Sequence record: OV696612
DNA from: Escherichia phage Perceval
Length of the DNA stretch: 50,143 nucleotides
Direction: 5' to 3' (one strand)
Shown here: piece by piece, positions 25,843 to 26,227 of the stretch
Numbering within the stretch: the first letter of the stretch is position 1
Layout: every line of letters begins with the position of its first letter
Made by a program: the position numbers and the translations under genes
Notes under the pieces: model-generated
Databases searched by the model: none
What the model was told of the DNA's origin: nothing
What the model saw: the letters and a program-made list of their open reading frames with translations, nothing else

Positions 25843-25874
25843 AATTTAGTACCTATAGTGAGCAAAATTAGAAC

Positions 25875-25896
25875 AAACATAGCAACGGCTATGTTT
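25875..25896 (-). promoter_or_regulatory. MntR-type operator palindrome upstream of sitA
   Basis: Perfect inverted repeat AAACATAGC-AACG-GCTATGTTT about 35 bp upstream of the sitA start, matching the E. coli MntR box pattern as recalled. Confidence 0.65.
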
Positions 25897-25915
25897 TATA
25901 GCACAGCCTATACAA

Positions 25916-25935
25916 AATGAAAATGATTATCATTA
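25916..25935 (-). promoter_or_regulatory. Fur box-like site upstream of sitA
   Basis: AATGAAAATGATTATCATTA resembles the Fur consensus GATAATGATAATCATTATC. Confidence 0.6.
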
Positions 25936-26227
25936 GCAGCTTTGAGGCCCAAAACAGGGATTAGGTTGTTTCCTGCTGGCGACGCGTTATTGAGGAAAAA
26001 AGTAAGGCAGCTAGTAGGCTTTGAAATAACGTTTTGCGGTTGGCTGATGCAATTTCGAGAGTGCATGTATTGAATGATTTCTAGCCGTTACTGATTTTCG
26101 TATTTTTTGTATGGGAGGATTTGCACCTCCCCCCACCGAGCCTCCATGACTTTACTCCACTGTCTCTAGGGCTGCTGTGTGCCAGGAGCGGAAGCAGGGG
26201 GGCCAGAGACTCCTTAAAAGTTGATAG

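What the first reader, a model, noticed from the sequence alone, without database searches (positions are those of the whole stretch)
25870..25940. Phage-borne sit promoter carries host MntR-type and Fur-type operator sequences
Upstream of sitA there is a perfect palindrome AAACATAGC-AACG-GCTATGTTT (MntR-box pattern) and AATGAAAATGATTATCATTA (Fur-box pattern). The cargo operon therefore appears wired to host metal-responsive repressors rather than the phage regulatory cascade, allowing expression in the lysogen only under Mn/Fe limitation.
Basis: partly seen in the sequence, partly recalled or inferred. Interest (0 to 1): 0.5.

Follow-up and report, generated by a model that had tools for sequence, protein, structure and literature searches.

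The report
Known Fur and MntR operators on sit
The metal-importer operon sitABCD carried by this E. coli lambda-like phage keeps its own promoter with binding sites for the host iron (Fur) and manganese (MntR) repressors; this is real but already documented, so it is an ordinary finding.

Summary
The perfect 9+4+9 palindrome lies at 25875-25896. The 17/19 Fur box lies at 25919-25937. They sit 33 and 77 nt upstream of sitA, which is on the minus strand (ATG at 25842).

The window is phage Perceval of E. coli LF82, a lambdoid phage that integrates at icd, written in cos-linear order. The palindrome matches the published enterobacterial MntR consensus perfectly, and its half-sites are identical to those upstream of K-12 mntH.

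The identical Fur 19-mer in the equivalent CFT073 prophage lies under a published Fur ChIP-seq summit, and sitBCD rise 8-20-fold in a fur mutant. Mathieu et al. (2020) already drew the Fur box on this very sequence. MntR/Fur control of sit is published for Salmonella and is cited in a review for Shigella.

The operators belong to a ~3.7-kb sit cassette shared by phages, ColV plasmids and chromosomes. The phage did not evolve the wiring; it inherited it.

One refinement: there is a second, degenerate MntR core at 25898-25911. Two cores exactly 19 bp apart occur in all 21 Enterobacterales sit promoters examined.

Verdict: observation confirmed, interpretation supported, already known, low interest.

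The parts
22393..23250 (-). sitD, ABC permease subunit
   Evidence: ORF. Metal ABC permease families. The identical locus in LF82 is annotated SitD.
23247..24104 (-). sitC, ABC permease subunit
24101..24928 (-). sitB, ATP-binding subunit
   Evidence: NF011630 manganese/iron ABC transporter ATP-binding protein, 592.8 bits against a cutoff of 393.
24928..25842 (-). sitA, periplasmic Mn/Fe-binding protein; ATG at 25842-25840
   Evidence: Annotated SitA in LF82, phage ev207 and phage 21.
25851..25854 (-). Shine-Dalgarno-like AGGT, 8 nt before the ATG
   Evidence: Sequence. The corresponding position is annotated as a ribosome-binding site in phage 21.
25875..25896 (.).
   Evidence: Matches the consensus quoted in PMC1698941. 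Half-sites identical to the K-12 mntH box. Core invariant in 21 Enterobacterales sit promoters.
25898..25911 (.). MntR-type box 1: degenerate core ATAGG-CTGT-GCTAT, 19 bp centre-to-centre upstream of box 2.
   Evidence: One mismatch to ATAGC-N4-GCTAT. A partner core at exactly 19 bp occurs in 21 of 21 Enterobacterales sit promoters.
25919..25937 (-). Fur box GCTAATGATAATCATTTTC, 17/19 to consensus
   Evidence: The identical 19-mer is listed as the Fur motif under the CFT073 ChIP-seq summit at 1,450,244. Marked as a Fur box on the ev207 sequence by Mathieu et al..
25895..25923 (-). Best-scoring candidate sigma-70 promoter: -35 TTTTCA at 25923-25918, 17-nt spacer, TGc-extended -10 TATAAA at 25900-25895. 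This is a prediction only. The alternative -10 is GATAAT at 25931-25926, inside the Fur box.
   Evidence: Own scoring script. The stricter tool scan found nothing here. No TSS data were available.
22366..26030 (-). Mobile sit cassette: the stretch shared by phage, ColV-type plasmid and SPF_0923-type copies. It includes the promoter and operators.
   Evidence: Upstream homology to plasmids ends at query position ~331, which is window ~26030. Downstream homology ends ~27 nt past the sitD stop codon.

Best explanation
The 25870-25940 stretch is the native control region of the horizontally mobile sitABCD Mn2+/Fe2+ ABC-importer cassette. Here the cassette is carried as a moron in the b-region of the icd-integrating lambdoid phage Perceval of E. 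coli LF82. It holds a Fur box at 25919-25937 and a tandem pair of MntR operators: box 2 at 25875-25896 (perfect) and box 1 at 25898-25911 (degenerate), 19 bp apart. These flank or overlap the core promoter. When iron is replete, Fe2+-Fur occupies the Fur box. When manganese is replete, Mn2+-MntR occupies the palindromes. Either one occludes RNA polymerase, so sitABCD is transcribed when the lysogen runs short of Fe and/or Mn. Both repressors are host chromosomal proteins. The phage supplies only the cis sites, and it inherited those with the cassette rather than evolving them. In the integrated state sit lies next to attR, separated from pL and antisense to the late operon, so its own promoter is the only sense-strand driver. 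Shown here or in the literature: the presence, uniqueness and conservation of the sites; Fur occupancy and Fur-dependent repression of an identical site in CFT073; and expression in the Perceval lysogen. Inferred: MntR binding to this copy (by identity with the consensus and with the mntH box, and from Salmonella and Shigella genetics); the exact promoter hexamers; and any cooperative use of box 1.
For: The motifs are present and unique in the window. The MntR consensus AACATAGCnnnnGCTATGTT is quoted from Ikeda 2005 in PMC1698941. K-12 mntH has AAACATAGC-AAAG-GCTATGTTT with a Fur-like box just upstream, which is the same architecture. The CFT073 prophage promoter differs at 4 of 221 positions, none in the Fur box or box 2. 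In CFT073 the Fur ChIP-seq summit at 1,450,244 (height 526) carries the motif GCTAATGATAATCATTTTC, and sitB/C/D rise 19.7/16/8-fold in the fur mutant (main text). Salmonella sitA is up 53.8-fold in a fur mutant, and its expression was also assayed in an mntR-deletion background. A review states that Mn-MntR represses sitABCD in Salmonella and Shigella. The Fur box plus two MntR cores form the only conserved block in 11- and 21-species comparisons. SitA-D are expressed 4-13-fold above prophage background in the LF82 lysogen. The window is Perceval. The same cassette and operators occur in phages, plasmids and chromosomes.
Against: No MntR binding or mntR-dependent expression data exist for an E. 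coli phage-borne copy in the literature I could read. The transcription start is not mapped, and the best predicted -10 (TATAAA) lacks the canonical final T. Expression in overnight LB shows that repression is not absolute. No terminator is predicted downstream of sitD, so the unit is not a fully insulated moron.
Confidence: 0.9

Rival explanations
1. The palindrome acts as an RNA element rather than as a protein operator, either as an intrinsic terminator or attenuator or as a 5'-UTR hairpin in front of sitA.
For: The terminator scan flags 25896-25875 on the minus strand as a 9-bp stem with a 4-nt loop followed by GTTCTAATTT. The RNA folds into that hairpin at -9.8 kcal/mol.
Against: The fold is not better than shuffles: z = -1.47, and 20 of 200 shuffles fold as well. 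Only 3 of the 9 pairs are G-C and the T-tract is broken. Across 21 species the arms are conserved in sequence (ATAGC/GCTAT invariant) with no compensatory changes, while the outer arm positions drift without keeping their pairing. There is no Rfam match. If the best-scoring promoter is the real one, transcription starts inside the palindrome.
Confidence: 0.03
2. The motifs are chance AT-rich matches or decayed relics that no longer regulate anything in the phage copy.
For: The region is AT-rich, and Fur-like hexamers are common in AT-rich DNA.
Against: The expected number of chance matches in the window is 0.02 and 0.01. The palindrome is perfect. An identical Fur site is occupied in vivo and is Fur-repressed in CFT073. 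The last 66 nt before the ATG are 100% identical in all 14 sit copies that contain the exact 22-mer; those loci were retrieved or selected by that 22-mer, so only the ~44 nt outside it are independent evidence.
Confidence: 0.02
3. Fur is the only effective repressor of the E. coli phage copy, and the MntR boxes are conserved sequence without physiological weight in E. coli.
For: All direct E. coli evidence I could retrieve concerns Fur. The phage papers mention only Fur.
Against: The MntR cores are more conserved than the Fur box across Enterobacterales; the Fur box is missing in several Pantoea loci, whereas both MntR cores are present in all 21. Box 2 is a perfect consensus site with half-sites identical to the K-12 mntH box. 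MntR control of sit is reported for Salmonella and Shigella.
Confidence: 0.05
4. This is an additive rival rather than an exclusive one. After induction or infection, sit is also transcribed by the phage cascade: N-antiterminated pL transcripts running through int and attP into the b-region would read sit in the sense direction. If so, the operon is not fully outside phage control.
For: sit, int and xis are all on the minus strand, with sit downstream of int in the circular or linear phage map. Lambda pL transcripts are known to enter the b-region (textbook lambda biology, from my own knowledge). The shared cassette extends only about 190 nt upstream of the sitA ATG, and no terminator is predicted on either strand in 25940-26600; the stretch from 26600 to int was not scanned.
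Against: In the integrated prophage, attP recombination places sit at the opposite end from pL, so this route cannot operate in a stable lysogen. Phage 21 annotates a terminator between int/attP and sit. I found no transcript data.
Confidence: 0.3

Closest known systems
Lambda-encoded sitABCD operons of infant-gut coliphages (Mathieu et al. 2020, Nat Commun, PMC6969025), including Escherichia phage ev207
   Same: The promoter sequence is the same: ev207 is 100% identical over 25700-26500. The position is the same, between the tail-fibre genes and att/int. [quoted passage not shown] 7.
   Different: That paper does not mention MntR (0 occurrences in the supplementary files; the main text was not searched for the term). 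The rest of the window genome is a different mosaic: 96.9% identity to ev207 over the left half, with other best hits on the right half.
sitABCD in the icd-integrated lambdoid prophage of UPEC CFT073 (Banerjee et al. 2020, mBio, PMC7157518)
   Same: The context is the same: tail fibre, two small ORFs, sitDCBA, a 771-bp ORF, then the icd remnant. The promoter is 217/221 identical, with identical Fur box and box 2. The site shows a direct Fur ChIP-seq peak and derepression in the fur mutant.
   Different: CFT073 sitA is a frameshifted pseudogene. MntR was not studied there.
Salmonella enterica SPI-1 sitABCD promoter (Ikeda et al. 2005, J Bacteriol 187:912; not readable here, cited through)
   Same: It is an orthologous operon with one Fur box followed by the MntR palindrome upstream of sitA. 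In S. arizonae the Fur box, box 1 and box 2 align column for column with the window. Repression by both Fur and MntR has been shown genetically.
   Different: It lies in a chromosomal pathogenicity island, not a phage. SitA is about 74% identical. Its box 2 has degenerate outer positions (TAACATAGC-AAAG-GCTATATTC) and its Fur box is weaker.
E. coli K-12 mntH promoter (Patzer and Hantke 2001; sequence read here)
   Same: The MntR half-sites are identical (AAACATAGC/GCTATGTTT). A Fur-like box containing TGATAATCATT lies just upstream. The gene has the same dual Fe/Mn logic for a Mn importer.
   Different: The gene is unrelated (an NRAMP transporter). It has a single MntR palindrome rather than a 19-bp-phased pair, and it is a core chromosomal gene.
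Phage toxin genes under host metalloregulators: corynephage beta tox under host DtxR, and stx1 of Stx1 phages under host Fur (from my own knowledge; not checked here)
   Same: The principle is the same: a prophage cargo gene carries an operator for a chromosomal metal-sensing repressor and is expressed when the metal is scarce. DtxR is the founding member of the MntR family.
   Different: The cargo there is a toxin, not a transporter, and there is a single repressor rather than two.

Membership tests
Enterobacterial MntR operator | Match to the inverted-repeat consensus 5'-AACATAGC-N4-GCTATGTT-3' | tested here: met
   16 of 16 specified positions match, plus one extra A:T pair on each side, at 25875-25896. 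The consensus is as quoted in PMC1698941.
Enterobacterial MntR operator | Same half-sites as an accepted MntR-regulated promoter of the host species | tested here: met
   K-12 mntH upstream reads AAACATAGC-AAAG-GCTATGTTT. That mntH is MntR-regulated is taken from the literature.
Enterobacterial MntR operator | Placed at or next to the promoter of a Mn-uptake gene and conserved in orthologous promoters | tested here: met
   It lies 33 nt upstream of the sitA ATG. ATAGC-N4-GCTAT cores are present in 21 of 21 Enterobacterales sit promoters and absent from the alpha-proteobacterial sit loci scanned.
Enterobacterial MntR operator | Mn2+-dependent MntR binding and mntR-dependent repression of this copy | not testable with these tools
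   Reported only for the Salmonella and Shigella orthologues, and known here only through citing papers.
Fur box | Match to the 19-bp consensus GATAATGATAATCATTATC | tested here: met
   17/19 at 25919-25937 on the minus strand. It is the only site with 3 or fewer mismatches in 50 kb, against 0.01 expected.
Fur box | In vivo occupancy by Fur and Fur-dependent repression | tested here: met
   Tested by sequence identity to a published bound site. The CFT073 19-mer is identical. It is listed under the ChIP-seq summit at 1,450,244, 94 nt upstream of the annotated sitA start at 1,450,150. sitBCD are derepressed 8-20-fold. This was not measured on the Perceval copy itself.
Fur box | Overlap with core promoter elements | tested here: inconclusive
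   The Fur box abuts and overlaps the -35 of the best candidate promoter, or contains the -10 of the alternative. No TSS data are available.
Phage moron (autonomous cargo unit in a prophage) | Non-phage function inserted between phage modules | tested here: met
   The operon lies between the side-tail-fibre region and icd'/attP/int. Related lambdoid phages lack it: it was found on 70% of the lambda phages.
Phage moron (autonomous cargo unit in a prophage) | Own promoter active in the lysogen | tested here: inconclusive
   The promoter is only predicted. Published transcriptomes show SitA-D at 4-13 times the prophage background in the LF82 Perceval lysogen.
Phage moron (autonomous cargo unit in a prophage) | Own transcription terminator | tested here: not met
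   No terminator-like site was found in 21300-22600. The shared cassette ends ~27 nt after the sitD stop codon.
SitABCD-type Mn/Fe ABC importer | Four genes in the order substrate-binding protein, ATPase, two permeases | tested here: met
   Family hits. SitB passes the equivalog cutoff. The identical LF82 genes are annotated sitA-D by RefSeq.

The most novel reading that the evidence does not exclude
The sit promoter does not carry one MntR box. It carries a fixed tandem pair of ATAGC-N4-GCTAT cores exactly 19 bp apart: 25898-25911 and 25879-25892. This pair is present in all 21 Enterobacterales sit promoters examined, whereas the Fur box is lineage-variable. If two MntR dimers bind cooperatively here, MntR rather than Fur would be the ancestral and dominant regulator of sit. 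The double site would give sit a sharper or lower Mn threshold than the single-box mntH. I could not establish whether this tandem arrangement has been described, because Ikeda 2005, Runyen-Janecky 2006 and Waters 2011 were not readable here.
Probability: 0.3. Interest if true: 0.3.

Novelty: already known. Interest (0 to 1): 0.1.

Why it matters
The locus is a clean textbook case of a prophage fitness or virulence cargo that plugs into the host's metal-sensing network, because it travels with its own operators. sitABCD is present in about 44% of complete E. coli genomes (2391 of 5426), on phages, plasmids and chromosomes, so the fact that the cassette is pre-wired explains why it works wherever it lands in enterobacteria. 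The principle and this specific instance are already in the literature, so the finding adds no new biology. It serves as a correct annotation: the Fur box, two MntR boxes and the cassette limits.

Tried and rejected
- **RNA-structure reading of the palindrome.** The fold has z = -1.47, there is no Rfam hit and there is no covariation, so I rejected it.
- **Strict sigma-70 scan.** It found no promoter between the operators and sitA. A relaxed script gave two candidates that cannot be told apart without TSS data.
- **Terminator search downstream of sitD.** Nothing was found. Only a 7-bp hairpin at 22321-22345, without a proper T-tract, was seen by eye.
- **Primary papers.** I tried to read Ikeda 2005 (PMC545731), Kehres 2002 (PMC135093), Runyen-Janecky 2006 (PMC1539580), Waters 2011 (PMC3194919) and Patzer and Hantke 2001 (PMC99535). 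None is held, so their content is cited only through reviews and citing papers.
- **Full-text search for the half-site AAACATAGC.** It returned only unrelated papers.
- **First guess at the CFT073 sit coordinates.** It missed; the second attempt found the locus.
- **NCBIfam scan of the two ORFs between sit and icd' (26121-26405 and 26529-27299).** No family was found.
- **Other MntR or Fur sites in the window.** None has 3 or fewer mismatches.

Full report
**1. Observation**

The repeat finder confirms two 9-nt arms, 100% complementary, separated by 4 nt. sitA is the minus-strand ORF 24928-25842, followed by sitB (24101-24928), sitC (23247-24104) and sitD (22393-23250). The motifs are therefore upstream of sitA, 33 nt and 77 nt from the ATG.

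Neither motif is a chance match:
- AAACATAGC-N4-GCTATGTTT, allowing 3 mismatches, occurs once in 50 kb, at 0 mismatches. Shuffles give an expected 0.02.
- The 19-bp Fur consensus GATAATGATAATCATTATC, allowing 3 mismatches, matches only at 25919-25937. The minus strand reads GCTAATGATAATCATTTTC (17/19). Shuffles give an expected 0.01.

**2. What the window is**

Positions 1-25000 are 100% identical to E. coli LF82 1,195,267-1,220,266, and 25700-26500 are 100% identical to LF82 1,220,966-1,221,766. Both stretches lie inside the prophage that Misson et al. (PMC9928086) named Perceval, at 1,172,883-1,223,026 and 50,144 bp long. The window is 50,143 bp.

The window starts where related lambda-like phage genomes start. 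It is therefore the cos-linear form of Perceval, a lambdoid phage with a P21-type integration module:
- an icd 3'-end fragment at 27771-27923;
- a tyrosine integrase at 28037-29179.

The sit operon sits in the b-region, between the side-tail-fibre genes and attP. The same arrangement is seen in phage 21, ev207 and about 20 other phage records.

In the integrated prophages of LF82 and CFT073 the order is tail fibre, two small ORFs, sitDCBA, a 771-bp ORF, attR with the host icd remnant, then ymgL/ycgX. In the lysogen sit is thus at the far end from pL, and it is antisense to the late operon.

**3. Identity of the two motifs**

*MntR site.*
- Rodionov et al. (PMC1698941) quote the enterobacterial MntR consensus from Ikeda et al. 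2005 as 5'-AACATAGCnnnnGCTATGTT-3'. The window palindrome matches all 16 specified positions.
- I read the K-12 mntH upstream region directly. It contains AAACATAGC-AAAG-GCTATGTTT 12 nt before the ATG, with a Fur-like box (TTTGATAATCATTCTC) just upstream. The half-sites and the architecture are the same as in the window.

*Fur site.*
- The supplementary tables of Banerjee et al. (PMC7157518) list a Fur ChIP-seq summit at CFT073 position 1,450,244, height 526, for sitA.
- They give the motif there as GCTAATGATAATCATTTTC.
- They report sitB, sitC and sitD up 19.7-, 16- and 8-fold in the fur mutant.
- I fetched the CFT073 locus and aligned it. 217 of 221 upstream positions are identical to the window, including all 19 of the Fur box and all 22 of the palindrome.
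- With the annotated sitA start at 1,450,150, the summit falls 94 nt upstream of it. In the window the Fur box spans 77-95 nt upstream of the sitA ATG.

*Other published support.*
- Salmonella sitA is up 53.8-fold in a fur mutant.
- A Salmonella sitA-lacZ fusion was also assayed in an mntR-deletion background.
- Reviews state that Mn-MntR represses sitABCD in Salmonella and Shigella.

**4. Comparative footprint**

A scan of one genome per species with SitA returned 80 loci.

- In an 11-sequence alignment (phage, phage 21, ColV plasmid, SPF_0923, Salmonella arizonae, Citrobacter, Enterobacter, Buttiauxella, Shimwellia, Phytobacter and Erwinia), the only conserved block in otherwise unalignable upstream DNA is the ~65 nt that hold the Fur box and the palindrome region.
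Every one has two ATAGC-N4-GCTAT cores exactly 19 bp apart.
- In the window the upstream core is degenerate (ATAGG-CTGT-GCTAT, 25898-25911) and the downstream core is perfect. In Enterobacter and Buttiauxella the upstream core is the one with the full 22-nt consensus. In many species both cores are perfect.
- The Fur box is present in the Escherichia, Salmonella, Citrobacter, Klebsiella-like, Enterobacter, Buttiauxella, Erwinia amylovora, Shimwellia and Phytobacter copies. It is absent from several Pantoea loci.
- Alpha-proteobacterial sit loci, whose SitA is 65-76% identical, lack MntR cores. Photobacterium loci have a Fur box only.
- K-12 mntH has no second core in the 19-bp register.

**5. 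The operators belong to the cassette, not to the phage**

- Homology between the phage copy and ColV-type plasmid copies (89% identity) ends ~190 nt upstream of the sitA ATG, at window ~26030.
- Downstream, homology between the phage, plasmid and SPF_0923-type copies ends ~27 nt after the sitD stop codon, at ~22366.
- All 14 sit copies containing the exact 22-mer (phage records, IMG/VR contigs and a plasmid) are 100% identical over the last 66 nt before the ATG. Their Fur boxes differ at most at three positions. Because these loci were retrieved or selected by that 22-mer, only the ~44 nt outside it are independent evidence of conservation.
- The 801-nt query (window 25700-26500, which spans the promoter and the 5' end of sitA) matches 2391 of 5426 complete E. 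coli genomes, at 1761 chromosomal and 1028 plasmid places.

The phage therefore acquired a pre-wired unit.

**6. Mechanism**

A relaxed promoter script ranks one candidate first: -35 TTTTCA (25923-25918), a 17-nt spacer, and a TGc-extended -10 TATAAA (25900-25895). That arrangement puts the Fur box over and just upstream of the -35, box 1 over the spacer and -10, and box 2 over +1. The alternative uses GATAAT (25931-25926), inside the Fur box, as the -10 with a poor -35. By analogy with mntH, that would make the MntR boxes a roadblock just downstream of +1.

Either geometry gives repression by Fe-Fur and by Mn-MntR. No TSS data were available, so this step is inference.

Expression in the lysogen is documented: SitA-D are 4-13-fold above the Perceval background in overnight LB culture. 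This also shows that 'only under limitation' is too strong.

**7. Rivals**

- *RNA structure.* The terminator scan flags the palindrome. However, the hairpin is weak (-9.8 kcal/mol, z = -1.47) and there is no Rfam family. The arms are conserved in sequence without compensatory change.
- *pL readthrough.* Readthrough into sit after excision or infection is plausible from lambda biology and from gene orientation, but it cannot operate in the integrated state. I rate it as an additive possibility.

**8. Novelty**

Mathieu et al. 2020 (PMC6969025) reported the following:
- sitABCD is on 70% of infant-gut lambda phages;
[quoted passage not shown] Other published work covers the rest:
- CFT073 ChIP-seq and the Fur pan-regulon study place sit in the direct Fur regulon.
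- MntR control of sit has been in the literature since 2005-2006.

The MntR box is not mentioned in the parts of the phage papers that I searched, but extending it to the phage copy is trivial. The general principle, prophage cargo under host metalloregulators, is classical; from my own knowledge, examples are the corynephage tox gene under DtxR and stx1 under Fur.

The only possibly unreported detail is the invariant 19-bp tandem MntR operator. I could not check it against the primary papers, because they are not held.

**9. Verdict**

The novelty class is 'already known' and the interest is low.

Noticed in passing
Two such cores at exactly 19 bp occur in 21 of 21 Enterobacterales sit promoters, whereas K-12 mntH has only one. 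This could be a cooperative double operator. I could not check whether it has been described.
   Followed up: partly
window 22366-26030: These are the limits of the mobile sit cassette shared by phage, ColV-plasmid and SPF_0923-type copies. It starts ~27 nt past the sitD stop codon and ends ~190 nt upstream of the sitA ATG. It carries no terminator of its own.
   Followed up: yes
window 26252-26311 (+): A short remnant of an IS3-family orfA (GKRYSEELKIEAVKRVVERV, followed by stop codons) lies ~220 nt beyond the upstream cassette boundary. It hints that an IS helped deliver sit into the phage b-region. The ColV plasmid copy has an IS1 about 350 nt upstream instead.
   Followed up: partly
window 27771-27923 and 28037-29179: An icd 3'-end fragment (50 aa, 78 bits to the NADP-isocitrate dehydrogenase C-terminus) lies next to a tyrosine integrase, which is P21/e14-type integration into icd. 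The LF82 prophage right end corresponds to window ~27760, so sit lies ~1.9 kb from attR in the lysogen.
   Followed up: yes
window 26529-27299 (+): A 256-aa ORF lies between the sit promoter and attP. It is conserved in phage 21, CFT073 and LF82 (WP_000567449.1, 'hypothetical protein') and has no NCBIfam match. Its function is unknown.
   Followed up: no
L003 (ON032529.1, 'Salmonella phage SPF_0923') 5700-9007: Directly beside sit, this phage record carries uspF, ompN and a pyruvate-flavodoxin oxidoreductase gene, which are ordinary enterobacterial chromosomal genes. The record probably includes host DNA, from either a transducing fragment or an overshooting prophage call.
   Followed up: no
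L097 17215-18151 (CFT073): sitA of CFT073 is annotated as a frameshifted pseudogene, although its promoter, Fur box and MntR box are intact and the operon is still Fur-regulated.
   Followed up: partly
L025-L083 (genome-contig loci): The closest non-enterobacterial relatives of this SitA are from Rhizobiales and other alpha-proteobacteria (65-76% aa identity). Their upstream regions lack MntR cores, and some show TGCAAATCATT-like motifs that look like Mur sites. The transporter is the same but the operator has been swapped.
   Followed up: partly
window 22321-22345: A 7-bp hairpin (GCAACGG-N11-CCGTTGC) lies between the convergent ends of the last tail-fibre-region ORF (ending at 22301) and sitD (ending at 22393). 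It is not a canonical terminator on either strand.
   Followed up: no
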